From positions 1 to 51,203 of the IMG/VR virus record IMGVR_UViG_3300021079_000011: a stretch of 51,203 nucleotides of DNA; one strand, 5' to 3'. Shown here piece after piece: positions 13,601-45,035 of this stretch; position 1 is the first letter of the stretch; each line of letters starts with the position of its first letter. The notes beneath the pieces are model-generated. The model was not told where the DNA came from, did no database searches, and saw only the letters and a program-made list of their open reading frames with translations. Made by a program: the position numbers and the translations under genes. Source of the DNA: a virus (taxonomy: Duplodnaviria > Caudoviricetes).

Positions 13601-16600
13601 ACGCGGACACATACGGGGACAAGCGCGGCGGAAAGACTCATGAATCGGAAATAACACTACAAAATCCGTTCGTGGCAACACCATCGGAAATGACTCGGTT
13701 GCATCACGGCCTTTCATCGCGTCAAGTGCGCGAGAAACTTCAAGCTGCTGGACATGATGGAGTCATCATATTGCATCCTGACGACGTTGCAGAATCGAAG
13801 GCTGCTGGTGTTCCTGACAGGCTTTTGCCGCCAGCACTAGGTCAAGAAATAATAAAATTCAACAAGCCCACCCTGCCCCCCGCCGCCGCGACAGGGGCGA
13901 AGGGGAAGCAGCCTAGTGCCACTGAATACGAGCGAATTGAGCGCGAGATTTCGATTGCTTTGAAGAATCCATTGTTCCGAGAGCAATCCAAAGCTGGCAC
14001 GGATTTCCGGGACGCTTTTCGAGACTTGGAAACAGAAGCGGAGTTTCACAAGCCTGCCGCGATTGAAAAAGCTCAGGCCGAAATTGACGCTGAGAAGGCC
14101 AAGAAAGCCGCCAAGTCCGGCAGTCCAGACATTGCTTTTATTGAGCGAAGTATTGCAAATCTGGAATACAGAATAAGACAAGACAAAATGCGAGGAATGA
14201 AGCGACCAGAGGATGTCCAAAGGCTTGCCGAACTTCGCACACAACTTAAATCAGCCAGCGCACCAGCCCCCGCGCAGACAGGGGCGAAGGGGGATGAACA
14301 ACACTTTGACAATCTTTTACGGGACACGTTTGGCGTAATCAACAGATTGCCAGCGGACAACATTGTTCGTAAGAGTGCAGAAATCGGGACTCGGGTTGCA
14401 ATGGGCGCAAAGACTGATGAAGAAAAGATTCTGGCAACAAAAGAACTGGCAAAATACGCCCAAGATGCAGCCAGCGAGTTGAGAAAAATCAGCCCGAAAG
14501 ATTCTGAATATGCCGACAGGCTGGAAAAGTCTCTGGACGACTACATAAAATCACAGCCCAAGACTGCCGAGCCAAAGCCAGCAGAATCACAATTCAAGGC
14601 TGGCGACATTGTTTTACATGACGGGGTTCAAAAGAAAGTTGTTCGTGTTTCGCCCGATGGCAAATTTGTCGTGCTTGGAAAACGAGCAGTCCCGGTTGCG
14701 GAAGTTAAACCATTAGAGCAACCCCCCGCCGCCACCGAAACCATTGAATCGCTCAAAGAGGAAATTGCGAAGATGGAGAATCGGCTTGAAACCATTTACA
14801 TACCCAAAGGCAACAAGGGCGACATCACAAACTACCGCTCGCAAATCGAAGGTAAGCGCAGGAAGCTCGCTGAACTTGAAAAGGTTGCCGAGCCAAAGCC
14901 ATTTAGCCCCGACGAAGACTTGCTAATGCACTCGCCCCATACGGGTGAAGATTCAATCGTGAATTTCCGGGGCTACATGCCAGATGGAAAGGCGATGGTC
15001 TGGACTGGCAAGATGCAAATGGCCATACCCGCAGAATGGCTACGCAGAAAAGGCGAGGCCAAGCCTGTCACGGAAAAGCCCGTTGAGCAGACAGAGAAGC
15101 CGCTTCCGTCTATTGCAATCCAAAAGTCCATAACCCAGATTTTGAAATCTGTTGCAATCATTGAGGGCAAGATTAACAAAAAGGCTTACGAAAGCGCATA
15201 CGCATCAATCCGGCTTCATGCAAACAAGCTGGGGATTGAGATTGAGCCGCTTGGGACATATTTCAACGCAGACCAATACAAGCGCGTTGCCAGCCATGTT
15301 CAAATTGAGATTGGCAAGAAATTTGGCAGCTTCCCAACAGCCGAGCATAGGGCTAAACGTGATGCTGTTCTTGCGGCTGATGCTGCAAGGAAAGCGGCCA
15401 AGAAACCCAACCGTTCGCCATTCAAAGTCAAGCCGCGCTCTGATGGTGTTCCCGACATCCTCGACGCAATTCAAGAGCTTGGCGGCATCAAGCCCAAGTC
15501 TGGCTCAACTGGTGGCGAGTATGACGGTTCTGGCGTGATGAAGGGGACGGCAAGAATGTTGTGGAACAGGCTTGGTCGTGCGCCAGATGTTCTGCTTTCA
15601 AACCTGAAATCAACAGGTGAATGGTCACGGCTCGAAACTGTGGATGATTTATGGTCTGAGATTGACCAAGCCAACAAAGCCCGGGACGCGCTCAAGTTTG
15701 GCGGTGGTGGAGATGAGGCACAGGCCAGAAGATTCTGGGAAGCCATTGACAAGCCCGAGAACGAAAAAGGTTTTGAGAAAATTCACGGTAGCCAACTTAA
15801 CGTCGGAAGCAAATTCAGGCTTAAAGGTGACGGCATAAGCCATGAAGAGCTTGAAGTCACACACATTGACCCGGACACAGGCGAAATAACCATCAAGGAC
15901 GGGACAACTTTTGGCACACAAGAAATTCCTGAATCAATCGAAATTTACATCAAGAAAGGCACACTCGAAACACCCGAAGACACCGGGTTTGATACGGGCG
16001 AGGAGCAGCCCGAGCCCAAAAAAGATGAAGAATTTGCTTCTCATTACGAGTTAAGACACTGGACTACGCCAGAAAGTGCCGCAAGTTTGTTAAGGGGTGA
16101 GCCTTTCAATTTCTCCCGCGAACCAATTCATAGTCAGGTAGATTTAAGCGGAAACTTTATCAAGGGGAAGCGCATGGGCGGGAACAGAATCCATCTTTCT
16201 CTGGACGATGGAACATGGGGTTTTCGACGAGACGCGAGCGGCAAGGTTATTGGAAATCTTGTGCCAGTAACTTATGCGGTTGATTATGCCGCTAAAGATT
16301 TACTCATTGACTCGCCAAAGTCGCTGCGTGAAGCGGAGCGACTGGCTGGCGAGAATGCCACCAAACCAGACGGAACTGGCAACGCAGCATTCTGGGATGC
16401 GCTACAAAAGAAGGGCATTAAACTTGTCCGAGTCGAGAATACTTCCGACTATCCCAATGTGAGATTCTTTGCCCAAGCAACTAGCGACACGGTGGTTGTG
16501 CTGGACAATTCCGCTGTGAAAGTAATTTCAAAAGCCAAAAAAACAGCCGCCCAGCCCAAGTCTGGCGAGAAAATCTTCACTGACACGGAAGCTGACGAGG

Positions 16601-19600
16601 CTGAGAAATGGCTTAGGGAAAATCTTGGGTTAAACGAGGATGAAGAAGGCGACGGATGGGATGCGTCTGAAGACCCCGGCCACCAAGAGGGCAGCAAAGG
16701 TTTAGACCCGAAAATTCTTGCCCGAGTCGTCACAATGGCTGGTCGAATCATTGAGTCTGGCAATGTGAAGTTTTCGGATTATGCGGCTCAGATGCTAAAG
16801 AAAGGGTTCAAGGGCGACTTGGCCAAATACATCCCTGCCGCATACCATGAAGTAAGAGATTTTTCCGAGGCCAGCGCATTGCGACATCAGATGTCAACCC
16901 GCGAAGAGGTTGACAGGTTTGATTACAATGCTGAAACAGGCCAGTTCGATGAAAGCCAGCCCGACCTTGGCGGAATAATAGGCTCAGACGAGCCGGGAGC
17001 AAAGCGACCACCGCTAAGAGAGGTTGACCCGAGCTTGATTCCTACTCCAAACATTTATGTCAAGAAAGGCCAATACACAGGCAAAGGAGGCCATTCGATT
17101 GACGAGCAACAACGGTTCGCAATCAACGTCATGCTCACCGCAAAGGCAAATGGCGAAAAGGCTGGCGTTTTGGCCGATGGAACTGGTGTTGGCAAGACTG
17201 GCATTGAACTGGTTCTGGCTGTTCAACTGGCTGAAATGACGGGCAAGCCTGTTGCGATTGTCACAGAAAACAAGGCTGTGATTGAAAATGCGTTTGTGAT
17301 GAACGCAAAGAAGTTCGGCATCGAAATTGATTTCGATAAGGTCAGATTTTTTACCTATACAGACTTGTCGAGCAACAACCTGCCAGACATTGAATGGGGC
17401 GCAGTCATATTTGATGAATCTCAAAACATCAAAAACATCATGTCTTCGCGTGGTGTCACCGCAGAAAACATCAAGTCCGAGTTCAATGTTTACGGGACGG
17501 CGACACCGATGGACAATGTTTTTCATGCGCCATATTTCTTGGGCAAAATTCTCGGGGTAGATGTTTTCACGATGGCGAGAAGGCTTGGCTACGAGCTTGT
17601 TCCCATAGATTTGCCCAACGGAAAATCATCATTCATCGCAAAATGGTTGAAGAGCAAAGACGGGGCGATTCCAATTTCTGAGTCCATCAAAAGGCTGAAA
17701 GATTACAGGTCGCAAGCCGTGAAGCGCGGGACTTATATCCGGCGCGAATATCCGTTCTTTGGCTCGGTCAATTTCAAAAATGCTCCGAGCTACAACGAGA
17801 AACAGCTTCACGAACAGGACGAGATAAACAATTACTGGGACGCTCTGGCGGCAGCAGAGCCCAAGAAGCGCATGGTCTATAATGCCCAGCGCATGAACGA
17901 GCTTGCCAGATGGACTGAGGCTCAAAAGGTTCAGGGCGCAATCGGTGAGATTGTTGCAGATTACGAAGCTGGAAAGCATGTGGTTGTTTTTGCTGAATAT
18001 GTAAATGACGGCGTTATCAAGGGGCTTGAAAAACTTGGTGTTCCATACGAAGTCCCCGGAACGCTTAAATATATCGCAGCAGAATTGAAAAAGCGCGGCA
18101 TCCCGTTTGCAACGGTGTTTGGTCGCGGGAAAGATAAGGGCAAAGAAGCGGCTGAATTTCAGCGGAACAAAAAAATCAGGGTCTTGCTCGCAACACCCAA
18201 GTCTGGCGGGGCTGGGCTAGACATGGACGATACGCATGGTGATTTCCCGAGAATCGTTCACATGTTGACCATGAATTATTCTGCGTCAATCTTCGACCAG
18301 ATTCTAGGTCGCGTTTCCCGCCGCAACACAGCAAGCCCGGCCAAGATTCTAATTTGGCGAGCCGAAAATTCACAGTCAGACCGTCGCAAGGTTGTCATTC
18401 TTGACCGTAAGCTTAACATCCTGAGAAAGATTCAGACCGGGGAAGACTTGGACACAACGGCTTTTGAAGAAAATTCTCAAGGCGACACATCAGCCGATGA
18501 TGAAAGCGGCACGGCTGAATCTTCGACAAAGAAGGGCGAGGATGGGGTTAAAATACTTGATGATGTCATTGACGACGAGTTTTCTTCCCCGGACATAACG
18601 GACACGGTTGACGACGAGTGGAATGACGAGCAACCACAGTCTGAGTTCGACATCTTTTCAGCCAACGACAGGGAGCTAAACGATTTCTTGGACAAACGGT
18701 TTGGGACAGAAGACAGGCGGCAACGGGGCGTTTCCGGGGATGCTGCTCGCCGGGGCTCTGGCGTTTATCAATTCCCGACCTACGAAGCTTTTGCGAAATG
18801 GATGGACGAAAGGTATGTCGAGCGGGACTTGGAAGGCATGAAGCTGGCTTTTGCCGAGGCCGAGCGCGATTACAAGGTTAAATACATCAAGGCCAACAGA
18901 GCCCCTGAGCATAAGAAGGATTGGGTAAACCATCTTGCAACAGGCTCGGTGCTTCCGGCTGGCGACCCGCCAATAACCCGCACGACACCGAGGCCGCTGC
19001 CCGGTGGCGGCACAGCCCCAGTCCCGGGAACGCCGCCAACCAGCACATCAACACCGCCAACGCCGCCCGGCGCACCGCCCAGACCGTCCAGACCGCCAAC
19101 GCACCATCGCAAGTTTAACATCACGGCTTTGGTTCAATTATTCAAGCAGTTCGCCAACAGGCATCCAACAATCAACGCCAAATTAGCCAAGACAACGCTT
19201 GGACGGCATCTGTCACCGCTCGGGCTGATTGAGCTTCAAAAGAATCTGCTCTGGGACATGGACTTGGCCGAGCGCGTTCTTGGCCATGAGATAGGACATT
19301 TCATTGACCTGATTGTTGAGGCATCCGGCAAGGGCAAAGAGATTGGGAACAGGCTCAGGCCGATGTTCGACTTTACTGGTCAGGCGATGCACAAGGCGGA
19401 ACTGAAAAAAGACATCATCAATTTGAGCAAGGCTTGGCGCGGAAACTTTTCTGCATCTGACAAATACAGGAATTCACCCAAGGAATTGATGGCAGATTTT
19501 CTGTCGGCAATGTTTAACGACCCGGAAATGGTGAATCAAACATTTCCAAACCTGTATGATGCTTGGCAGGAATTCAAGGACTCAAAGCCGTCATTCAAAT

Positions 19601-22600
19601 CCGCTTACCGCGAGATTGAGACTTGGCTTCAGGGTGATACGATGGGTTCGGAATTGATTGATAAATTCGGCGAAGATACTGACCTGACTTACGACATCTT
19701 GGGCAAGGAAGATTCGGACAACAAATCAACTTGGTGGGAAACATTCAATCATAGCTTCATCAGCCTATGGAAACGGGCTGGCGAAAAGGAGGCTAAAAAA
19801 GTTCCATTAAACAAATTGTCACCAGCTAGGCTCTGGAACAAGTCTGGATATAAGATGGTTAAGAATCGGCGCGTAGGATATAAGATTGAAGAGAAGCTTG
19901 ATGTTTCCCACATCTGGGCGGCAAACATGACTGCCATCTGGCAGGACGACTTCAGAAGGGATGTTCAGCCTTGGCTGGACAAGGTTGATTCCGACCCTCG
20001 CACGGTGCAGAAGTATTTTCAGAGCTACGCAGTTTCAAAGAGAACACTAGAAGAAACCAAAGCGGCTGGCGTGTGGATGAAGGACAACCCGGTTGAGACT
20101 AGGGAAATGCTTGAAAAGATTCTGGCAACAGTTTCCAGTCTTGAAGCGGAATATCTATCTGAGCTTAGGAACGCCTCAGATGATGAACTATACAATCTGA
20201 GCGCGAAGATTGCTCGCAAGATTCTTTTGATGTCAGATTCCAAGATTAACGAAATTGCCAGCGAGATAAACAGTCTCGGTTTTGAAATCAAAGGAAAACT
20301 TTTCTTGGGCGCGTTTGCTGTTCGTAGCTTTTTACTAAACACAGGAGGAATAACCCCAGAATCTGCACAGCTTGTCTTGAACGAGCTTCAGAGAAGACTG
20401 AGCCCGGAACAGTATTCGGCACTTGAAAAGGCTGCGGCTGAACTTCGCAAGCTTGTGTTTAAGGTTTCAAAGGAAATGTATGACCAAGGGCTGATAAACA
20501 AAGACATCTGGTATGAAACAATCTTGCCCAACCAAAACACTTACCTGCCTTATGCGGTTCTGGATTATTTCGACGGAACAGTAAGGGGCGGGATAATGCA
20601 ACAGGGTGGCAGCGCAAAAAGAATCGCGTCCGTAATAGCTGCTGCTCAATTAAAGGTTCAGTCCATGTATATTCTGTTGCAGAAGCAGCGGCAGGTTAAG
20701 CTTATCATGGATTCCTACAAAGCTGGTGACTCTGGTAAAGTCGCTACTGTTACCCGAAGGTTGCAAAGAGCCTCTGACCTGCACTCGATTAGGGGTCAAC
20801 ATCTGAGGGACACAACAAGCAGGGCGATACTTAGGGTCAACGGCTCGCCTTACCTTGTCGAGTTCCCGGAAGACCCCGGCAAGCAGTTTGAAAAATCAAT
20901 GGAAATAGCTGAGTTTTACGCATCGCTTGACTGGATTCACAACGTTTCAAAGTATTCTCATGCTGCCCAACAAATTTTCACCCAGCTTGCACCTACATTC
21001 CTGTTCTATCGCAACCCGATTCGTGGGCTTAGGACTGGTGCGCTAAAGGTTGGTGGGAGACACATATTGAAAGCGGCTTTCAACTGGGACTCAATCACGC
21101 AAGCCAGAAACTATGCTAACGCTTCGTTTAGTGGTCTAATGTCCCCAGTTATCCGTCAACTGGTTGAAGGTCAAGCCCTGATGTCGCCAAGGGCTGCTTC
21201 TGGTCAAGTAAGAGACGTTTCACAAATTGCGGGGCAAGGCTTGGCTGGTAAATTTCTGGCGAGCGAAATGAGACGTTTGGCGAGGAATGCAAATAAAAAA
21301 CCGTCAATACTTGGAGACAAATACAGGCAGGGAATTAACTTCTCTGCTAAAGTTTTCACAGGATTGGAAGCGTGGGAAAAGATTTACAACTACAAAGCCG
21401 CACTCGCTAAAGGGTTGACTCAGGAACAGGCTCTTATGATAACTCAAATGAGCGGAATACCGAGGCCGGGTGTTGGTGGCAAATTCTCGCCTTTTGTGGA
21501 AATCGGCATGCCTTGGACTCGCGTTAAGATTCAAGGCATGAGGGCAACCTACGACATGGCGCGTGACCCCGAGCTTGGCAAAGGTTTCTGGGCAAGATTT
21601 TTCATGTATGAAGCAGTCCCGAAGATTCTTCAAATGCTAGTGGCCAAGGCAATTGTATCGGGGTTAATCGCATGGATTTACAATAAGGGAGACGACCCTA
21701 AAGACCCGGTTATCACAGAGGTTTATCGCCGCATATCCCCATATAAAATGGCTTTAGACAATATTATACCACTGATGCTGTATAACCCGAGAAGCGGAAA
21801 GTATCATAAGTTTTGGGAGTTCAAGAGCGGCAATGAAATTCCGGCTCATTACGAGGTTGTTAGCCTGAGAATCCCGACCAGCGAAGAAGGATTGACATAC
21901 GGCACATTCCTTCATGCTTTAATGGTTTCTGCTTCAGGCGAGTCCAAAAACCTTGGCCGACCCGGAGCAACCCCAACCAAGAATATGTTTGATTGGGCTA
22001 TGAATTCTCTTTTACCCCAACCAAACCCGATTGCCACGACAGCATGGAAAACTATTCAGATGTTGGCAGGGACAAATCCAACTGACGATTTCAGAAACCA
22101 GCCGTCAGCAAACAAGCAACTGTTCGACGCTGGTGGCAAAGACAGGTTTCAGGCCATTCTTGGGTTTGAAGCGAGCCAGACCGCTGCTTTTGGTGAAATA
22201 GCTGGCATCATCGCGGCGAATTACGGCTTGATAGACCCCAAAGCTTTGAGCGCATTAAGCAAGCGTTCGGATTCAGATAATAAATCGTTCGTTGATAAAT
22301 ACCCATTTGTTAAAGCCGCATTTTCCTTCGACAACTACAATGGTTATAGGCAGGAGGAAAATGAGAAATTGGATAATGAAAAATATCACGATAGAGCTAA
22401 AAACCTGATGCCGACTGAAGGGCGGGAAATGTATAATTTCTATTATCGAAACCAAGACAAAAAGAATCTAGCTCCGCAAGACCAAGAAATGTTTGATATA
22501 GCGAAGCAATGGAACAGGGACATTTGGGGCTTAAAATCAACTGAAGACAAACTAAAACCCAACAGCAAGAAGCCCCCTAAATCTACCTACTACCCGCAAA

Positions 22601-22728
22601 TCCTTACGGCTGTTAAGAACGAGGCTTCACCCGAAATGTTGCGGACATTACAAGAAAATTTAAGACAGGCGAGTTCGCCGTATTACAGCTCCTTTACAAA
22701 CGCCAAGTCTGGCGCAACAACCAAATGA
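10675..22728 (+). CDS. giant polyvalent ejection protein (DarA_C-like, ADP-ribosyltransferase-like x2, SH3-like x2, strawberry-notch-type SF2 helicase, zincin, LPD38-like C-terminus)
   Basis: Hydrophobic G/A-rich segment at about aa 350-540; YASPRRP..RPLTLDEMAAFEL; AYRG..WTTSKDYADTY..GHDGVI..QE; ADGTGVGKT, IFDESQ, TATP, GGAGLD, QILGRVSR; LGHEIGH..ELMAD. Confidence 0.85.
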   Translation: MPSQLFKPDDSLDFDSVLESSKAKFDDGGALSFDAVPDVPDVKPRFSDDGALDFGTLETKPEPEPKPIAATPQRTNYLSLSPESFPINTDSTIDKTDSTQTVKPPAAKEVNPLPLSSIPWIDSNGYPDEKLIAKKAQAETAAQQKKQDDFDSLAHSSYWKGDAAKQLLEKADSAKETLDKSPTQENSDAYNALIDPLNAAIQEHKSSQQELQAAYFKTTGETPVPPRPAENNSYRVDGGKIHFTPGQFAAGLNQAVSDGAIDPKFAMDNREKFQKADKIQSKIDGNGDPNSQYEYDGKNIRFYPGEEADGLREALKDGVVTPEYAAKNEKKFGEAQAKYKELVAAAGSEQAAKALLHGGAKGTAFMAAATPAFKVGVIGTEMIPGVGEIPGAALVGGTITSLLAGSAAAYATSKLMDKAAEYSDFVKKFTASAELHPVVDAVGELAAFGTGAPKALSNLKKVYDIAGGGRAGAKVVAQELGKGAIGGAAFETIVRPAFDAGRYAVADMLDIPHDKFQSPTLQSVATMVGLGMLLHGKSIEFKNYSDSQIAEILLKAKLRRDAGIPLDEKNLTAEQKAQFAMATGLGEGATIPEIEAHLAKYRLLVPLTENEISVHDKLQSMANSMSQSGNFENDTIKSITAKQALLPRMIGQKPKPVTSADIELEPPSEPRPMLGSPEPPPEQPQAPAVFHSIQPPMIPGQQPIELWNLTEDIPGHPKGSTVSRSTLEKAGYIVPSAPAATPSDDEQPDATGAKGRQVGKGFQPIVVGKKVLSITTRPDTATWQVTSFADEYREQPSGHEGFKTLGEALEFVDYKGKENRSVTDLGWQSPDAIFAALEQNPGANDPNPKNFIYASPRRPLSGLRVPDAVQSLSFKNKEGGLAGIVEVSRPLTLDEMAAFELVPVNTSASNTYWKSVADAVHPGHEKIQAGKDVAAETGAKTGKPFTAKAYRGISPKTPNDKGIYSEGEHWTTSKDYADTYGDKRGGKTHESEITLQNPFVATPSEMTRLHHGLSSRQVREKLQAAGHDGVIILHPDDVAESKAAGVPDRLLPPALGQEIIKFNKPTLPPAAATGAKGKQPSATEYERIEREISIALKNPLFREQSKAGTDFRDAFRDLETEAEFHKPAAIEKAQAEIDAEKAKKAAKSGSPDIAFIERSIANLEYRIRQDKMRGMKRPEDVQRLAELRTQLKSASAPAPAQTGAKGDEQHFDNLLRDTFGVINRLPADNIVRKSAEIGTRVAMGAKTDEEKILATKELAKYAQDAASELRKISPKDSEYADRLEKSLDDYIKSQPKTAEPKPAESQFKAGDIVLHDGVQKKVVRVSPDGKFVVLGKRAVPVAEVKPLEQPPAATETIESLKEEIAKMENRLETIYIPKGNKGDITNYRSQIEGKRRKLAELEKVAEPKPFSPDEDLLMHSPHTGEDSIVNFRGYMPDGKAMVWTGKMQMAIPAEWLRRKGEAKPVTEKPVEQTEKPLPSIAIQKSITQILKSVAIIEGKINKKAYESAYASIRLHANKLGIEIEPLGTYFNADQYKRVASHVQIEIGKKFGSFPTAEHRAKRDAVLAADAARKAAKKPNRSPFKVKPRSDGVPDILDAIQELGGIKPKSGSTGGEYDGSGVMKGTARMLWNRLGRAPDVLLSNLKSTGEWSRLETVDDLWSEIDQANKARDALKFGGGGDEAQARRFWEAIDKPENEKGFEKIHGSQLNVGSKFRLKGDGISHEELEVTHIDPDTGEITIKDGTTFGTQEIPESIEIYIKKGTLETPEDTGFDTGEEQPEPKKDEEFASHYELRHWTTPESAASLLRGEPFNFSREPIHSQVDLSGNFIKGKRMGGNRIHLSLDDGTWGFRRDASGKVIGNLVPVTYAVDYAAKDLLIDSPKSLREAERLAGENATKPDGTGNAAFWDALQKKGIKLVRVENTSDYPNVRFFAQATSDTVVVLDNSAVKVISKAKKTAAQPKSGEKIFTDTEADEAEKWLRENLGLNEDEEGDGWDASEDPGHQEGSKGLDPKILARVVTMAGRIIESGNVKFSDYAAQMLKKGFKGDLAKYIPAAYHEVRDFSEASALRHQMSTREEVDRFDYNAETGQFDESQPDLGGIIGSDEPGAKRPPLREVDPSLIPTPNIYVKKGQYTGKGGHSIDEQQRFAINVMLTAKANGEKAGVLADGTGVGKTGIELVLAVQLAEMTGKPVAIVTENKAVIENAFVMNAKKFGIEIDFDKVRFFTYTDLSSNNLPDIEWGAVIFDESQNIKNIMSSRGVTAENIKSEFNVYGTATPMDNVFHAPYFLGKILGVDVFTMARRLGYELVPIDLPNGKSSFIAKWLKSKDGAIPISESIKRLKDYRSQAVKRGTYIRREYPFFGSVNFKNAPSYNEKQLHEQDEINNYWDALAAAEPKKRMVYNAQRMNELARWTEAQKVQGAIGEIVADYEAGKHVVVFAEYVNDGVIKGLEKLGVPYEVPGTLKYIAAELKKRGIPFATVFGRGKDKGKEAAEFQRNKKIRVLLATPKSGGAGLDMDDTHGDFPRIVHMLTMNYSASIFDQILGRVSRRNTASPAKILIWRAENSQSDRRKVVILDRKLNILRKIQTGEDLDTTAFEENSQGDTSADDESGTAESSTKKGEDGVKILDDVIDDEFSSPDITDTVDDEWNDEQPQSEFDIFSANDRELNDFLDKRFGTEDRRQRGVSGDAARRGSGVYQFPTYEAFAKWMDERYVERDLEGMKLAFAEAERDYKVKYIKANRAPEHKKDWVNHLATGSVLPAGDPPITRTTPRPLPGGGTAPVPGTPPTSTSTPPTPPGAPPRPSRPPTHHRKFNITALVQLFKQFANRHPTINAKLAKTTLGRHLSPLGLIELQKNLLWDMDLAERVLGHEIGHFIDLIVEASGKGKEIGNRLRPMFDFTGQAMHKAELKKDIINLSKAWRGNFSASDKYRNSPKELMADFLSAMFNDPEMVNQTFPNLYDAWQEFKDSKPSFKSAYREIETWLQGDTMGSELIDKFGEDTDLTYDILGKEDSDNKSTWWETFNHSFISLWKRAGEKEAKKVPLNKLSPARLWNKSGYKMVKNRRVGYKIEEKLDVSHIWAANMTAIWQDDFRRDVQPWLDKVDSDPRTVQKYFQSYAVSKRTLEETKAAGVWMKDNPVETREMLEKILATVSSLEAEYLSELRNASDDELYNLSAKIARKILLMSDSKINEIASEINSLGFEIKGKLFLGAFAVRSFLLNTGGITPESAQLVLNELQRRLSPEQYSALEKAAAELRKLVFKVSKEMYDQGLINKDIWYETILPNQNTYLPYAVLDYFDGTVRGGIMQQGGSAKRIASVIAAAQLKVQSMYILLQKQRQVKLIMDSYKAGDSGKVATVTRRLQRASDLHSIRGQHLRDTTSRAILRVNGSPYLVEFPEDPGKQFEKSMEIAEFYASLDWIHNVSKYSHAAQQIFTQLAPTFLFYRNPIRGLRTGALKVGGRHILKAAFNWDSITQARNYANASFSGLMSPVIRQLVEGQALMSPRAASGQVRDVSQIAGQGLAGKFLASEMRRLARNANKKPSILGDKYRQGINFSAKVFTGLEAWEKIYNYKAALAKGLTQEQALMITQMSGIPRPGVGGKFSPFVEIGMPWTRVKIQGMRATYDMARDPELGKGFWARFFMYEAVPKILQMLVAKAIVSGLIAWIYNKGDDPKDPVITEVYRRISPYKMALDNIIPLMLYNPRSGKYHKFWEFKSGNEIPAHYEVVSLRIPTSEEGLTYGTFLHALMVSASGESKNLGRPGATPTKNMFDWAMNSLLPQPNPIATTAWKTIQMLAGTNPTDDFRNQPSANKQLFDAGGKDRFQAILGFEASQTAAFGEIAGIIAANYGLIDPKALSALSKRSDSDNKSFVDKYPFVKAAFSFDNYNGYRQEENEKLDNEKYHDRAKNLMPTEGREMYNFYYRNQDKKNLAPQDQEMFDIAKQWNRDIWGLKSTEDKLKPNSKKPPKSTYYPQILTAVKNEASPEMLRTLQENLRQASSPYYSSFTNAKSGATTK
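12924..14289 (+). repeat. four dispersed copies of GACAGGGGCGAAG (TGAK linker)
   Basis: Copies at 12924, 13482, 13890 and 14277; 12921-12940 and 13887-13906 are identical over 20 bp. Confidence 0.9.
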
Positions 22729-33870: not shown

Positions 33871-34146
33871 ATGGACAAAAACCTTCCAACCGGGGAGACG
33901 ATGAACGAGGGTTCATCAATCCCGCCAGAAACACGCGCAGACGAGGCCGAAACAGCCGATATTCCGTTGTCTATGCTGGGCGATGTCTCCGAAGGCGAGA
34001 CGGTTACAGTCCGGGTCGTGAGCGTCAACGCCGATGCGGGGACTGCGACCATAACCAAAGCCGTTGACGAACCCGATGCCAGTCCGTCTGCGACGGATGC
34101 AATGGCTTCAGAGTTTGACAAAGAACAACCAACCGAACAGGCATAA
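33871..34146 (+). CDS. small acidic protein
   Basis: 91 aa with a small beta core EGETVTVRVVSV. Confidence 0.65.
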   Translation: MDKNLPTGETMNEGSSIPPETRADEAETADIPLSMLGDVSEGETVTVRVVSVNADAGTATITKAVDEPDASPSATDAMASEFDKEQPTEQA

Positions 34147-34152
34147 ACAATT

Positions 34153-34551
34153 ATGGCAAACCCAACTTGCACAGTCGCCAGCCTCATAACGAACAATCCG
34201 TGTTTTTCCGCGAAAGTTTTGGATGAACAGCATCAGTTGGCCTTGAAGATTTGGTTCATGGCCAACGAGTTGTCTGTCATTGGAGGGACAAACTACACGA
34301 ACACGCTGACATCAACGCTTTTGACTGATGCAACTGCGCTCTATCGAACCATGAACCCATCGCAGCGGCAGCTTGCGATTCTGAGCATCTACAAGAACAA
34401 TGCAGTCAACGCTGGCGCAACCATTTCCAGCGATATTCAGGCTTTGATGGCCAGTATCAAGTGTCTTGTCAACATGACACCCGACCAGCTTCAACAGGCT
34501 GAAATTCTCCTGTTATGCCAGCTTGGGTTTCACAAGACCCGGCCACAATAA
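34153..34551 (+). CDS. Cys-repeat paralog 1 (putative capsid decoration)
   Basis: Two copies of a ~33-aa unit, the second ending LLLCQL. Confidence 0.65.
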   Translation: MANPTCTVASLITNNPCFSAKVLDEQHQLALKIWFMANELSVIGGTNYTNTLTSTLLTDATALYRTMNPSQRQLAILSIYKNNAVNAGATISSDIQALMASIKCLVNMTPDQLQQAEILLLCQLGFHKTRPQ

Positions 34552-37567: not shown

Positions 37568-37921
37568 ATGATACTCGAAAAAATTCAAGAACTCTGGCCG
37601 GTGCTTAACGGTTCGCACGGACTGTTTCCGGCATTGCTTGGCTGGCGCGGCTTTATTGGTGTTGCCGTTCCGCTGTTCAACACATGGTTGCAGATGAAGT
37701 TCACTGAACTTTTGAAAGCTAGCCCGACCATTGCTAACGACATCGTGAAACAGTCTTGGTATAAGACGATTTCTCTATTTTTACGAATGGTTGCCGGAAT
37801 CATGTTGCCAACAGAAGCGTCCATGTTGTTGCATCAGGTCAATGAGAACATCAAGAACGACAGCAACCCTGTGGCGTTCAAAAAATCAGTGGTAGATACG
37901 ACAAACCCGAAAGGCGAATAA
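37568..37921 (+). CDS. membrane protein, possible holin/antiholin
   Basis: Two moderately hydrophobic segments; lysis-module position. Confidence 0.4.
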   Translation: MILEKIQELWPVLNGSHGLFPALLGWRGFIGVAVPLFNTWLQMKFTELLKASPTIANDIVKQSWYKTISLFLRMVAGIMLPTEASMLLHQVNENIKNDSNPVAFKKSVVDTTNPKGE

Positions 37922-42691: not shown

Positions 42692-43044
42692 TTATTGATT
42701 ACGACGAAATTGCGCGGTTTCAAAAGCGTTTGCTGGAAGCATCTGAGCGGCTTGATTCCATGACGAACGGGGTTGCTCTAGCTCGGCAAGTTGTCGAATA
42801 CGACTCTGACAGGCGCAAGAAGGCTCTGGCAATGGAGGTCGCCCCGCTGATTGGAGAAATGTCGGCTGTGGCGGCTGAAGTTGTTGGTCGCGCAAGCCCC
42901 CGTTATGCTCGCGCAATGGGTGAGTTGGCCAAGCAATACGAATCTGCCCAGCGAGTTATGGCTGAGTGGGAAGCAGCCAAGATAGCATTTGAAGCTGCCC
43001 GGTCAGTCTTGTCTGTCGGCAAGGAAAGCATGAGGTTGACATGA
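42688..43044 (+). CDS. helical hypothetical protein
   Basis: ATGA coupling on both sides. Confidence 0.65.
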   Translation: MIIDYDEIARFQKRLLEASERLDSMTNGVALARQVVEYDSDRRKKALAMEVAPLIGEMSAVAAEVVGRASPRYARAMGELAKQYESAQRVMAEWEAAKIAFEAARSVLSVGKESMRLT

Positions 43045-43376
43045 AAATTTATGTGACTGGAAAGCTTGTCGGTGAAGTTGTTTCTGGCGAGTTCAGGAAA
43101 ACTGTTCGGGGCTCAATCCATTTCTTGCGTAAACCGCCAGCAATCGCTTTCGATGAAGAAAGCATACATCAAGCTGCCGGGGCTGGGGCGCGGGTTATCG
43201 TTGTCACCGACAAAGATACTTGCAAAGTTTACCGGGCGACGATGAAAGACTTGAAACAATACGGTGTTGAATTTGACCGGGGCTATGGTCAGCAGATATT
43301 CTTGCCATTCAATCGCTGGAACAGGCCGGAAGAAAATTTACACGAACAGGCCGATTTGTTTTGTGCTAACGTATGA
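43041..43376 (+). CDS. conserved phage hypothetical protein
   Basis: HFLRKPPAIAFD, DRGYGQQIFLP...W. Confidence 0.65.
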   Translation: MKIYVTGKLVGEVVSGEFRKTVRGSIHFLRKPPAIAFDEESIHQAAGAGARVIVVTDKDTCKVYRATMKDLKQYGVEFDRGYGQQIFLPFNRWNRPEENLHEQADLFCANV

Positions 43377-43486
43377 ACTCAGCCACCGCCGACCTAAAAC
43401 CGTCAACCGCGATAGCGGAACTGGATGTGCAGCCCTTCCCGCCAGTGCTCGATGCGTGCTGCGGTGGCCGCAGATTCTGGTTCAAA
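43364..43486 (-). mobile_element. degenerate attC-like site
   Basis: Minus strand AAC cagaa TCT(G)CGGCCACCGC ... GCGGTGGCTGAGT tcatac GTTAGCA; overlaps the methyltransferase 5' end. Confidence 0.4.
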
Positions 43487-43967
43487 CGTGATGACGCTCG
43501 CTCGCTCTTTGTGGACATTCGCAACGAAACAGACCAGATAGACCCGCGACCGGGAAGAAAGCCTCAAATCGTCGCTCCAGACTGGCAAGGCAGCTTCACC
43601 GCCATGCCGTTTCCAGACAACACTTTTGCCCATGTGGTATTCGACCCGCCGCACCGGACGACTCTGACAAGTGAATCAGACGCTAAGACGTGGCTGGTGC
43701 GCCAATACGGGAGGCTCGTCGGCGACTGGCGCGAGATGCTGCGCCTCGGATTCGCTGAATGCTTTCGGGTGCTCCGCCCCGAAGGGACGCTCATATTCAA
43801 GTGGTGCGAATACGATGTGGCCGTGTCGGAAGTGCTCGCACTGACCCCAGTGAAACCGCTTTACGGCCACCGGAGCGGGAAACAGAGCAACGACGCACTG
43901 GTGCGCGTTCTTGAAGCCTAACAAAAAGCTCACCGATGCCGGGCCTGACGCGCCCGGACTCGCGTGA
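43373..43967 (+). CDS. SAM-dependent (amino-type DNA) methyltransferase with an apparent frameshift near the 3' end
   Basis: LDACCGGRRFWF, VVFDPPH, ECFRVLRPEGTLIFKW; family tail THWCAFLK sits in another frame from about 43890 (track ORF stops at 43921). Confidence 0.75.
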
Positions 43968-44005
43968 GACGCAATCCCGGCATTCGGTGCAGCGTATGGT
44001 TGGAC
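43916..44005 (-). mobile_element. integron-type attC site (90 bp)
   Basis: Minus strand GTCCAAC catac GCT(G)CACCGA(A)TGCCGGG ... CCCGGCATCGGTGAGC ttttt GTTAGGC: RYYYAAC/GTTRRRY ends and two extrahelical bases. Confidence 0.8.
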
Positions 44006-44026
44006 GGCGAACAACGATAATCGAAT

Positions 44027-44299
44027 ATGAAAAAAGACTACGAAGTAAACGGTGATACAATCCGCGACCCGCACGGTGACGTGATGTGTGGAACGGATGA
44101 GTTTGTAGCGGAGATGCGTATGCTCCGAGAAACCCTCTACAACCTGTTCTGGAGAACGTCCCTGCTGCGGGCTGAAATGGCTCACCGATACGGAACGTCT
44201 CTGACGCTAATGGTGGAGTTCAGCAAGCACACGCAAGCCATGCGGGAAGCTGAATCAATCCTGAACGACAAACCGTTCCCAGCCCCGGAGGTCAAATGA
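44027..44299 (+). CDS. cassette-borne hypothetical protein
   Basis: Lies between two attC sites. Confidence 0.6.
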   Translation: MKKDYEVNGDTIRDPHGDVMCGTDEFVAEMRMLRETLYNLFWRTSLLRAEMAHRYGTSLTLMVEFSKHTQAMREAESILNDKPFPAPEVK

Positions 44300-44526
44300 C
44301 AGCATCAACAATCAAGCGCGGCGACATCCTCGAAACGCGGTCGGTGTCCCTGACAACCTGCGGCGCGGTGCGTGACAAGGGAATCATCGTGCCGGGAACT
44401 CGCGTCAAAGTCGTGCGTGCCGAAAAGCCCGCCTTCTACAAATGCGAAGTCCAGCCAGTCGAACGCGAAAACGGAGCGGTGTTCGTATGGCTGTGGGCGT
44501 CCGAACTGAAGCCGTCCAACAAATAG
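44296..44526 (+). CDS. cassette-borne SH3/KOW-like small protein
   Basis: IKRGDIL...PGTRVKVV...WLWASEL; stop codon lies inside the attC. Confidence 0.6.
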   Translation: MTASTIKRGDILETRSVSLTTCGAVRDKGIIVPGTRVKVVRAEKPAFYKCEVQPVERENGAVFVWLWASELKPSNK

Positions 44527-44565
44527 TTCACCGACGCGCAGCGTTCGGTGCAACGGCAGTTAGGC
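44514..44565 (-). mobile_element. integron-type attC site (52 bp, very short)
   Basis: Minus strand GCCTAAC tgcc GTT(G)CACCGA(A)CGC tgc GCGTCGGTGAAC tattt GTTGGAC. Confidence 0.75.
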
Positions 44566-44877
44566 GGGATTCTCTTCCTGTGGCTGGTTCAAAATACAGT
44601 CCGGGTTGTTACAGGTGAACTTGGGGCTGTTCGGATAAGCGTCCGAAACCATTTTTTTACCGCAATAATCGCACTCGTCCATGAACCTGACAGCAACCCG
44701 ACTGTCGCCGTGCAAATCGTAGCTGACAAAGAATTTCCTGATTGCGTCCCTCAACTCTTTCCTTGTGGCGATTCCATCAGTCAAGTCTGCGTCAAAATGA
44801 ATGACCGACTCGCTCGGTCTTATTCCAACTTCGGACTCGCCCGGGCTGGTGATGTAAACAGTGGTATTCATTTGCAA
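44560..44877 (-). CDS. Zn-ribbon hypothetical protein
   Basis: CDYCG...CNNPDC; its TAA is part of the attC GCCTAAC box. Confidence 0.65.
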   Translation of the reverse strand: MQMNTTVYITSPGESEVGIRPSESVIHFDADLTDGIATRKELRDAIRKFFVSYDLHGDSRVAVRFMDECDYCGKKMVSDAYPNSPKFTCNNPDCILNQPQEENPA

Positions 44878-45035
44878 AATGATTCAAACTTTTCCAAGAT
44901 TTGGGGGAAGGCGAGCTTCAATGTTTCAAGGTTTTCAGAGTCAGCAACCTGAGCTGCATTTGCAATCGCAACTTCAAAGCTGCCACCAAATCGTTTCATC
45001 ACGGTGATAATTTCGTCGTCAGTTGGTCTTTTCAT
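44868..45035 (-). CDS. small conserved phage protein
   Basis: MKRFGGSF..AIA.A...AD.EN...LK.AFP motif; start probably MKRPTDD. Confidence 0.6.
   Translation of the reverse strand: MKRPTDDEIITVMKRFGGSFEVAIANAAQVADSENLETLKLAFPQILEKFESFCK

What the first reader, a model, noticed from the sequence alone, without database searches (positions are those of the whole stretch)
43364..44565. Integron-type attC cassette array in a phage, inverted relative to its genes, with no integrase
Seen: two palindromes (43916-44005, 44514-44565) read on the minus strand as RYYYAAC...GTTRRRY. Each has the same two unpaired bases (G, then A) in the left arm: GCT(G)CACCGA(A)TG and GTT(G)CACCGA(A)CG. The segment between them is bounded by GTTGGACGGC (43999-44008) and GCCGTCCAAC (44511-44520), a 10-bp perfect complement, and the outer ends GCCTAAC/GTTAGGC also complement each other. 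A third, degenerate site overlaps the methyltransferase start. Established: these are the hallmarks of attC sites recombined as folded single strands by IntI tyrosine recombinases, and cassette ends regain complementarity on circularisation. Unusual: the carrier is a phage, the cassette genes run opposite to the normal cassette orientation so the phage rightward operon can transcribe them, ORFs read into the sites, no intI is visible, and the array sits exactly where two operons converge. Inference: the phage uses a host integron integrase in trans to gain and drop accessory genes.
Basis: partly seen in the sequence, partly recalled or inferred. Interest (0 to 1): 0.88.

Follow-up and report, generated by a model that had tools for sequence, protein, structure and literature searches.

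The report
Integron gene cassettes in a phage
A lake-water phage carries two genuine integron recombination sites around a small two-gene cassette, and the same cassette sits in other phages, one with its own integron integrase, so phages swap accessory genes by the integron mechanism.

Summary
Sites A (43916-44005) and B (44514-44565) have the full attC anatomy. A covariance model built without window sequence scores them 50.8 and 29.1 bits; the next hit scores 15.4. The window has no tyrosine recombinase.

Comparative evidence is strong:
- An independent sample holds a variant that joins 43367 directly to 44518, at shared AAC triplets. It lacks the methyltransferase and the cassette.
- Homologues of the 76-aa protein diverge right after the AAC codon.
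- The same cassette occurs in an unrelated phage, and next to attI and an intact integron integrase in a relative of a 39-kb phage.
- A separate phage group shows four array states, all differing at AA|C.

The "third site" is a real junction but not a folded attC.

Phage attC clusters without an integrase (CALINs) were published in 2023, so the kind is known. I found three points unreported in the text I could search: reversed gene orientation, natural gain and loss, and a cassette shared with a phage-borne integron. Whether a host or a co-infecting phage supplies the integrase is untested.

The parts
43041..43376 (+). Upstream 111-aa ORF. Its last codons (..C-A-N-V-stop) contain the left junction AAC.
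   Evidence: ORF list and translation. There is no Pfam hit and only a weak PHROG hit.
43364..43370 (+). Left junction TGCTAA|C. It is a crossover point without a hairpin, resembling a genomic attG or secondary site.
   Evidence: It does not fold and has no model hit. The X2 contig joins 43367 to 44518 with 3 shared letters, AAC. An X4 contig's match to the window ends at 43371 and the contig runs on 48 nt unaligned (table 8).
43373..43921 (+). DNA methyltransferase gene. In this window it has no attC of its own. The conserved C-terminus (THW.AFLKPN) lies in the +1 frame from 43890.
   Evidence: phrog_954, E 6.9e-52. Frames shown. Homologues in L002 and L021 are true cassettes with an attC just upstream.
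43916..44005 (+). attC site A, with the bottom strand on +. Parts in order: R box GCCTAAC, 5-nt spacer, 3 bp, 6 bp, stem, roughly 32-nt variable loop, unpaired T at position 23 and C at position 16, 5-nt spacer, GTTGGAC.
   Evidence: Model R1 gives 50.8 bits, E 2e-11. There are 2 compensatory double changes against L121.
43922..44519 (+). The 598-bp cassette. It starts with its own hairpin A and GTTGGACGGC, carries two ORFs, and ends with GCCGTCCAA.
   Evidence: 10/10 end complementarity. It is 88% identical to L121 over window 43926-44521 and 86% identical to L120 over window 43993-44522.
44027..44299 (+). Cassette ORF 1, 90 aa, function unknown.
   Evidence: Five database proteins matched; one is the window's own and four are homologues at 84-93% identity. 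No Pfam or PHROG family. Protein atlas gave nothing useful.
44296..44526 (+). Cassette ORF 2, 76 aa, function unknown. It has a GGAGG ribosome-binding site and an ATGA overlap with ORF 1. It reads through its own R box (..K-P-S-N) and stops at a TAG in the spacer of site B.
   Evidence: Nearest atlas clusters are viral hypothetical proteins.
44514..44565 (+). attC site B, with the bottom strand on +. It has a 3-nt loop and the same 3 bp / 6 bp / two-bulge architecture as site A.
   Evidence: Model R1 gives 29.1 bits, E 1.4e-5 on + and 10.1 bits on -. The same hairpin family occurs in 9 other viral contigs. Covariation.
44560..44877 (-). First gene (105 aa) of the convergent leftward operon. 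Its TAA stop lies inside the GTTAGGC box of site B.
   Evidence: No relatives found in viral contigs.
43368..44517 (.). The 1150-bp segment (methyltransferase plus cassette) that is missing in a co-occurring variant.
   Evidence: table 5. In run X2 a 692-nt contig at depth 9.1 skips it. The full form is also present in the same run (contig over 43531-44408, depth 12.6, 0 differences).

Best explanation
The region 43364-44565 is a cluster of integron attC sites without an integrase (a CALIN), lying at the end of the phage's rightward operon.

Sites A and B are true attC sites whose recombinogenic bottom strand is the + strand. When that strand is single-stranded, each site folds into the hairpin that an integron integrase (IntI) recognises. 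IntI cuts between A and C of the 5' AAC. Exchange with another attC, attI or a GWT-type genomic site then inserts or excises the DNA between two AAC points.

The 598-bp unit 43922-44519 is one such cassette. The methyltransferase segment, 43370-43921, behaves as a second unit, but its own hairpin has been lost.

Because the resident site exposes its bottom strand on the sense strand of the operon, only cassettes whose genes lie on the bottom strand get expressed. These genes run toward and across the crossover point. They usually end in the stop codon carried by the next site's spacer (AAATAG or CAATAG).

Shown here: the site anatomy, the strand assignment, the breakpoints, cassette sharing between phages, and physical linkage of the same cassette to an IntI gene elsewhere.

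Inferred: that IntI catalyses these events in this phage, and where that IntI comes from. The candidates are the host or a co-infecting integron-bearing phage.
For: Anatomy
- AAC/GTT boxes, 5-nt spacers, and unpaired bases at positions 16 and 23 counted from the 3' end. attC_aadA7 has G16 and T23 (PMC5027507, passages read).
- The same strict scan finds attC_aadA1 of a class 1 integron on the strand that encodes intI1.

Statistics
- The scan gave 24 hits in 258,934 bases of real loci and 0 in the reversed copies.
- Shuffled windows gave a mean of 0.02 hits of score 12 or more, against 2 real hits.
- Model R1, built from 11 non-window sites, gives 50.8 and 29.1 bits; the next hit is 15.4.
- R1 is specific: it hit 1 of 24 other methyltransferase loci (193,008 bases).

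Breakpoints
- X2 joins 43367 to 44518 at AAC.
- Five different protein tails follow ..KPSN.
- Homology with L121 and L120 ends at AAC.

Other phages
- Eight 96-99.9% identical contigs show four array states. Every difference lies at AA|C, and each unit's two ends are complementary over 7-8 nt.
- L002 has a chain of 5 sites, with the methyltransferase as a true cassette.

Integrase linkage
- L120 carries the same cassette, then attI, then an IntI gene (TIGR02249, 350.5 bits against a cut-off of 265).
- L120 is 91.7% identical to phage G011 over 1041 nt.

Bacterial side
- The same hairpin family is a member of a Verrucomicrobiota cassette array.
- IntI scored above cut-off in 3 of 5 genomes carrying the hairpin and in 0 of 14 control genomes.

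Covariation
-.
Against: - The left junction has no hairpin, so the methyltransferase segment is not a canonical cassette here. Its loss in X2 needs a secondary-site (attG-like) reaction or an earlier form of the site.
- L120's copy of the cassette carries a hairpin that cannot be aligned with site A. That is unexpected if a hairpin always travels with its cassette.
- Position 16 is C rather than the usual G.
- No integrase is in the window, the host is unknown, and no recombination was measured.
- The X2 evidence is one assembled contig, not raw reads.
- Model R1 and the scan are my own constructions. Several R1 seed sites were picked with a scan designed after I had seen the window. L120's right spacer and R box are homologous to site A's.
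Confidence: 0.85

Rival explanations
1. Relic array. The sites are real attC sites, but they reached the phage by illegitimate or homologous recombination from a host or phage integron and are no longer recombined. The genes are now ordinary fixed phage genes.
For: No integrase is in the window. The methyltransferase unit has lost its hairpin. Phage G011 keeps only about the last 40 codons of intI, which shows that such systems decay.
Against: The full and deleted forms co-occur in one sample, with identical flanks and a junction at AAC. Both hairpins keep perfect stems, with compensatory changes relative to their relatives. A near-identical phage group shows four array states.
Confidence: 0.08
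2. The hairpins are bidirectional transcription terminators or regulatory stems at the operon junction. Gene exchange would then happen by ordinary homologous recombination within these conserved stems, with no integron integrase involved.
For: The hairpins sit exactly between convergent genes. [quoted passage not shown] The hairpin family is conserved across phages.
Against: No T-run follows either stem on the + strand, and terminator-like sites are not enriched (7 found against 4.2 +/- 2.3 in shuffles). The breakpoints lie outside the conserved stems, at the AAC, where only 3 letters are shared. Hairpins with unrelated sequences share the same bulge geometry. The same cassette abuts attI and intI.
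Confidence: 0.04
3. The hairpins are ends of another single-strand mobile element, such as REP/RAYT elements or IS200/IS605-type or MITE-like elements.
For: They are imperfect palindromes with bulges, and 10-bp inverted repeats bound the segment.
Against: Each of the 5 bacterial genomes tested holds only one copy of the hairpin core, so it is not a dispersed repeat. No transposase is nearby. The anatomy and strand match attC, down to bulge positions 16 and 23.
Confidence: 0.02

Closest known systems
Phage CALINs (clusters of attC sites lacking an integrase): Qi, Rajabal, Ghaly, Tetu and Gillings 2023, Front Microbiol, PMC9892861
   Same: At least two attC sites with no intI in a phage genome, including virulent phages. 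Methyltransferases occur among the cassette genes. The inference is the same: phages take part in cassette traffic. In that study, five of six phage attC sites recombined with IntI1 (section 3.4 read).
   Different: That study screened 10,705 isolated phage genomes. Here the carrier is an uncultivated lake-water phage. All genes lie on the bottom strand and read across the crossover. Natural gain and loss is seen at AA|C. The same cassette is linked to a phage-borne intI. In that paper's main text, 'orientation' appears only in the methods and the reference list, and 'opposite' never appears.
Canonical cassette attC sites of class 1 integrons (attC_aadA1 / attC_aadA7)
   Same: RYYYAAC and GTTRRRY boxes, an unpaired central spacer, two extrahelical bases at positions 16 and 23 on the R''/L'' arm, a variable terminal loop, cleavage in the AAC of the bottom strand, and cassette ends that complement each other.
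   Different: The outer extrahelical base is C, not G. The gene lies on the bottom strand and downstream of its own attC, instead of on the top strand and upstream of it. No Pc promoter, attI or intI is present in the window.
attC x attG insertion into genomic sites (Loot et al. preprint, 10.1101/2022.09.11.507474; passages read)
   Same: Cassette junctions with non-hairpin DNA at a minimal GWT (that is, AAC) motif. This fits the window's left junction at 43364-43370 and the right ends of the arrays in L121 and L002.
   Different: That work was done with IntI1, IntI2 and IntI3 in E. coli. Here the link is only inferred from junction sequences.
Complete integrons carried by phages (same 2023 paper; abstract and outline seen only)
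   Same: L120/G011 and G012 carry an IntI gene or its remnant beside attC arrays in phage contigs.
   Different: The window itself has no intI. The L120 integrase is only 37-43% identical to the bacterial integron integrases I compared, including IntI1 at 39%. Its cassettes encode phage-family genes that are co-directional with intI.

Membership tests
integron attC recombination site | R' and R'' boxes with conserved AAC / GTT (RYYYAAC / GTTRRRY) | tested here: met
   Site A has GCCTAAC / GTTGGAC and site B has GTCCAAC / GTTAGGC. The consensus is as stated in PMC5027507.
integron attC recombination site | An imperfect palindrome that folds as a single strand, with an unpaired central spacer and a variable terminal structure | tested here: met
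   DNA folds (z-scores -1.7 to -3.1). Spacers are 5/5 nt (A) and 5/4 nt (B). Loops are about 32 nt and 3 nt. The consensus fold of 8 family members is.
integron attC recombination site | Extrahelical bases on the R''/L'' arm of the bottom strand | tested here: met
   C16 and T23 on the 3' arm of the + strand. The positions match the G16 and T23 of attC_aadA7 and of attC_aadA1 in L122. The identity of base 16 differs (C, not G).
integron attC recombination site | Significant score against an attC covariance model | tested here: met
   My own model R1 gives 50.8 and 29.1 bits. The published IntegronFinder and HattCI models were not available, so that exact test was not run.
integron attC recombination site | The first bases of a cassette are complementary to its own R'' box | tested here: met
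   10 of 10 positions at 43999-44008 / 44511-44520. The same holds in units X, Y and Z and in the L002 chain.
integron attC recombination site | Crossover between A and C of the AAC (G|TT on the top strand) | tested here: met
   By comparison only: the X2 joint, the protein tails, the limits of homology, and the phage group L027-L035.
integron attC recombination site | Recombination depends on an integron integrase | not testable with these tools
   This needs an attC x attI assay.
CALIN (cluster of attC sites lacking an integrase) | At least two attC sites close together and no intI nearby | tested here: met
   Two sites lie about 600 bp apart (start to start). The whole 51-kb genome has no PF00589 match. 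The two-site minimum is as used in PMC9892861, sections 2.1 and 3.4.
complete integron | intI, attI and cassettes on one replicon | tested here: not met
   Absent from the window. Present in L120.
REP / RAYT repeats | Many dispersed copies per genome | tested here: not met
   One copy of the hairpin core in each of 5 of 5 genomes. Two copies in the window.
intrinsic terminator | A GC-rich stem followed by a T-run | tested here: not met
   No such site at A or B on the + strand. One weak 5-bp match on the minus strand inside B. The count is not above shuffles.

The most novel reading that the evidence does not exclude
Tailed phages may run an integron system of their own. In this reading, an integrase lineage carried by phages (the L120/G011 type) services a pool of 'reverse-oriented' cassettes shared among phages. 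These cassettes encode phage accessory genes such as methyltransferases, YunG-like proteins and PAPS-reductase-like proteins. Their genes sit on the recombined strand, are transcribed with the phage operon, read across the crossover point, and borrow the stop codon of the next site. Unrelated phages without an integrase, like this one, would join the pool during co-infection.
Probability: 0.35. Interest if true: 0.8.

Novelty: new variant of a known kind. Interest (0 to 1): 0.6.

Why it matters
The origin of phage mosaicism at operon ends, and the way small accessory genes ('morons') move between unrelated phages, are usually put down to illegitimate or short-homology recombination. Here a defined site-specific mechanism accounts for it base by base:
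- the same 598-bp unit sits in three different phage backgrounds;
- a natural population holds both the filled and the empty form;
- one phage lineage brings the integrase itself.

If this is general, integrons are not only bacterial gene-capture devices that phages occasionally pick up. They would be a working gene-exchange platform for phages, including for anti-restriction methyltransferases. The reversed gene orientation also shows that the rule of 'gene upstream of its attC, read from Pc' is a consequence of where the promoter lies, not of the recombination chemistry.

Tried and rejected
- **Close relatives of this phage.** Megablast of 43000-45000 against 50,697 phage records found nothing. 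The flanking 105-aa and 247-aa proteins found no relatives in viral contigs. So close relatives could be compared only through sequencing runs.
- **Permissive hairpin scanners.** These were too noisy and I dropped them (in one search, 11 real hits against 8 in the reversed control).
- **First MAFFT alignments of the sites.** A1 and A2 misplaced some arms. I left out L042b, L114 and unit X, and used A3.
- **REP-type repeat.** Rejected.
- **Terminator.** Rejected.
- **Rfam.** No family at E up to 1.
- **Third site as a folded attC.** Rejected.
- **Site B as the attC of a canonical cassette holding the 105-aa minus-strand gene.** I found no matching box beyond that gene's start when reading. The X4 breakpoint at 44874 has no AAC. 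Rejected.
- **Function of the two cassette proteins.** Pfam, PHROGs and the protein atlas gave nothing usable. I did not fold them.
- **Host assignment from integrase identity.** Values of 37-43% to all the bacterial integron integrases compared are uninformative.
- **phrog_2 search of G011.** It found no terminase, but direct scans showed terminase, portal and head proteins.
- **Runs X3 and X4.** They hold only short or diverged pieces. I draw nothing from their uncovered parts.
Full report
**What the window is**

The window is a whole viral contig of 51,203 bases with direct terminal repeats, estimated 90% complete. A long rightward gene string ends at 44526. A leftward string begins at 44560. 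The terminase large subunit is at 922-2709 on the minus strand.

Yes. On the + strand, site A (43916-44005) reads GCCTAAC, five unpaired bases, a stem, a loop, the return stem with two extra bases, five unpaired bases and GTTGGAC. Site B (44514-44565) has the same plan, with a 3-nt loop and the boxes GTCCAAC and GTTAGGC.

The 10-bp pair at 43999-44008 and 44511-44520 is perfectly complementary. The two outer boxes are exact complements.

The putative third site, at 43364, holds TGCTAAC but does not fold.

**Are they attC sites?**

I wrote a strict scan for this architecture: AAC, a 4-7 nt spacer, 3 bp, 6 bp and 4 bp, with one unpaired base after the 4-bp block and one after the 6-bp block on the 3' arm, then a spacer and GTT.
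- It gave 24 hits in 258,934 bases of the window and related loci, and none in the reversed sequences.
- In 100 dinucleotide-preserving shuffles of the window, hits of score 12 or more averaged 0.02. The real window has two.
- The same scan finds the textbook attC of aadA1 in a class 1 integron. The hit is on the strand that encodes intI1, with G and T as the two unpaired bases.

Counted from the 3' end, the window's unpaired bases are at positions 16 and 23. Nivina et al. name G16 and T23 as the two extrahelical bases of attC_aadA7 (PMC5027507, passages read).

I then built a covariance model (R1) from 11 sites, none of them from the window and none sharing its stem sequence. The seeds were:
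- two sites from other phages;
- six from Verrucomicrobiota arrays;
- one from L120;
- attC_aadA1;
- one from a Thiodictyon integron.

With filters off, R1 scores site A at 50.8 bits (E 2e-11) and site B at 29.1 bits (E 1.4e-5), both on the + strand. The next hit in the window scores 15.4 bits. Nothing appears at 43364.

R1 is specific. In 24 other methyltransferase loci (193,008 bases) it hit only one locus.

Eight short members of the site-B family share one consensus fold. Four pairs are kept through changes on both sides, and no stem pair is broken. Site A and its homologue in L121 differ by two compensatory double changes.

**Strand and orientation**

In the class 1 control, the bottom-type strand is the intI1 strand and aadA1 lies on the other strand. 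A Verrucomicrobiota array (L116 7950-11070) likewise has its genes on the strand whose 5' arm carries the extra bases.

In the window, the bottom-type strand is the + strand, which is also the coding strand of the methyltransferase and of both cassette genes.

The + strand genes are real.
- The 76-aa gene has a GGAGG site and an ATGA overlap with the gene before it.
- Both proteins have conserved homologues, at 84-95% identity.

**Comparative evidence for recombination at AA|C**

1. *An empty form in another sample.* Run X2, an independent lake-water sample, holds a 692-nt contig at depth 9.1 that joins 43367 directly to 44518. It skips 1150 bases, and only the three letters AAC are shared at the joint. 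The same run also holds the full form (contig over 43531-44408, depth 12.6, no differences). The missing piece is the 552-bp methyltransferase segment plus the 598-bp cassette.
2. *Protein tails.* The four homologues of the 76-aa protein are conserved up to ..LKPSN and then carry four different tails, none matching the window's. N is the AAC codon.
3. *An unrelated phage.* L121 is a different phage contig, with a terminase gene downstream. It carries the cassette at 88% identity over window 43926-44521. At its right end, non-hairpin DNA follows GTCCAA|C.
4. *A copy beside an integrase.* L120, a 2.7-kb metagenome contig, carries the cassette at 86% identity over window 43993-44522. An attC of the same architecture but a different stem precedes it. 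After GTCCAA|C come about 35 nt and then an integron integrase gene (TIGR02249, 350.5 bits; cut-off 265).
5. *A separate phage group.* Eight contigs that are 96-99.9% identical (L027, L029-L035) share the site-B type hairpin next to the stop of their terminase gene.
   - They differ by discrete units directly to its left: none (L027), X (L033, L035), X+Y (L034, L031) and Y+Z (L030).
   - L029 and L032 are cut off within or next to Y.
   - Each unit starts with its own hairpin of unrelated sequence but the same bulge geometry.
   - Each unit ends in a box complementary over 7-8 nt to the GTT box beside its hairpin.
   - The left junction of unit X reads AGC instead of AAC.
6. *The methyltransferase as a cassette elsewhere.* The closest homologue (L002, 63% identity) lies in a chain of five R1 hits. 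Successive boxes are complementary, and the methyltransferase start codon lies in the loop of the fifth site. The family's conserved C-terminal K-P-N codons form the R box. L021 shows the same arrangement. The other 23 of the 25 homologue loci have no site.

**Where is the integrase?**

The window has no PF00589 match. Neither do five other cassette-bearing phage records, including a complete 67.5-kb genome.

An integrase lineage does travel with phages.
- L120's right part is 91.7% identical over 1041 nt to G011.
- G011 is a 39.2-kb contig rated 100% complete, with terminase, portal, major head and tape-measure genes.
- G011 keeps the same attI-proximal 19 nt and three R1 sites, but only about the last 40 codons of intI.
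- G012, a 53-kb viral contig, has an IntI at 267 bits. I did not examine it further.

On the bacterial side:
- 6 of 64 genome matches to the hairpin core show the full AAC...GTT frame, and 2 more show only the AAC side. I read the rest as chance and did not check them one by one.
- 3 of 5 such genomes have an integron integrase above cut-off, against 0 of 14 control genomes.
- Each of the 5 genomes has only one copy of the core.

**How it most likely works**

The bottom strand of the resident site becomes single-stranded and folds, and an IntI dimer binds it. Richard et al. state that exposure on the lagging-strand template favours folding and excision (PMC13108822, passages read). That the strand becomes exposed during replication in this phage is my assumption.

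Cleavage in the AAC and exchange with a cassette circle inserts the new unit immediately to the left of the resident hairpin. The reverse reaction removes it.

Because the operon's sense strand is the bottom strand, only cassettes with bottom-strand genes are transcribed, and selection keeps those. Such genes commonly run through their own R box, with AAC read as Asn, and stop at the TAG in the next site's spacer. This holds for the 76-aa gene, units X and Y, and the gene upstream of the array in L027. The window's upstream ORF also ends ..C-A-N in the same frame, so in the X2 form it would meet site B's TAG (read, not built). Unit Z has its own stop.

These steps are inferred from sequence. 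None was measured.

**The left junction**

The AAC at 43368-43370 has no hairpin beside it. Two readings fit.
- A two-unit circle was inserted, and the methyltransferase unit's hairpin was lost later.
- The X2 deletion arose from site B reacting with a secondary site.

Loot et al. report that IntI1, IntI2 and IntI3 insert cassettes at double-stranded genomic sites with a GWT consensus, which they call attG. They also note that folded attC sites are easily lost by replication slippage (preprint 10.1101/2022.09.11.507474, passages read). The non-hairpin right ends of the arrays in L121 and L002 fit the same route.

I cannot choose between the two readings.

**Rivals**

- *Terminator.* This fails for lack of a T-run. 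Also, the breakpoints lie outside the conserved stems.
- *Dispersed-repeat element.* This fails on copy number.
- *Dead relic.* This is hard to square with the full and empty forms coexisting in one sample.

**What is known already**

Qi et al. 2023 (PMC9892861; abstract, sections 2.1 and 3.4, and term searches read) screened 10,705 phage genomes.
- They found 17 CALINs, and integron components in 21 phages.
- They showed that five of six attC sites from virulent phages recombine with IntI1.
- They noted five methyltransferases among phage cassettes.

So attC arrays in a phage without an integrase are a known kind.

I found no mention of the following in that paper's main text, nor in the titles and abstract openings listed by my three searches (terms as):
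- a consistent reversal of gene orientation;
- genes reading across the crossover;
- natural filled and empty forms of one phage;
- one cassette shared by unrelated phages and a phage-borne integron.

In that paper's main text, 'orientation' appears only in the methods and the reference list, and 'opposite' never appears.

**Limits**

- The host is unknown, and integrase identities of 37-43% assign nothing.
- The function of the two cassette proteins is unknown.
- The X2 evidence comes from contigs.
- R1 and the scan are home-made. Part of the seed set was chosen with a scan designed after I had seen the window.
- L120's hairpin is not homologous to site A, although the rest of the cassette is. 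I cannot explain this.

Noticed in passing
window 43885-43975: The methyltransferase has one extra base near 43890 compared with its homologues. As a result, the family's conserved C-terminus (THW.AFLKPN) lies in the +1 frame, and the annotated frame stops at the TAA inside the R box of site A. An independent sample's contig is identical here, so the extra base is probably real. Without it, the gene would read 15 codons beyond the AAC codon, into site A, because that site's spacer lacks the TAG that site B has.
   Followed up: partly
L125 4071-6120 (G011 about 13056-15105); L120 770-1775: Phage G011 (39.2 kb, rated complete) carries three attC sites, a PAPS-reductase-like last cassette, an attI-like stretch, and only the last 40 or so codons of an integron integrase. 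Its relative L120 has the integrase intact.
   Followed up: partly
L124 3317-4273 (G012): A 53-kb viral contig rated 99% complete encodes an integron integrase just over the family cut-off (267 against 265 bits). It also has one attC model hit 1.9 kb upstream and a second tyrosine recombinase elsewhere. I did not resolve whether this is a phage-borne integron or a host flank.
   Followed up: no
L002 1168-4510: A 29-kb phage contig has a chain of five attC sites with complementary successive boxes. It carries two different DNA methyltransferases (phrog_1008 and phrog_954) and a phrog_16275 gene, all on the bottom-type strand.
   Followed up: partly
L034 1343-1436 (also L031, L035): The left junction of unit X reads AGC instead of AAC. 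Its hairpin also has an extra bulge. This looks like a cassette whose outer crossover point has mutated, which may have fixed the cassette in place.
   Followed up: no
L031 4660-5140, L032: In two contigs of the near-identical phage group, the sequence to the right of the shared hairpin changes 9 nt beyond the GTT. A RuvC-like gene replaces the terminase side there. This breakpoint is not at the attC crossover.
   Followed up: no
window 10675-22728: A single open reading frame of 4017 codons on the + strand. I did not examine it.
   Followed up: no
window 37732-37796 and 34127-34275: A weak attC-model hit (15.4 bits, E 0.07) and a weak scan hit (score 11). Both are at background level in the controls, so I read them as chance.
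   Followed up: partly
L094 2626-4560, L074 496-1201, L042 1310-2062: More cassette arrays with the same two-bulge architecture occur in two Verrucomicrobiota genome bins and in a short contig binned as Hyphomicrobiales. This suggests where this attC type is common.
   Followed up: no
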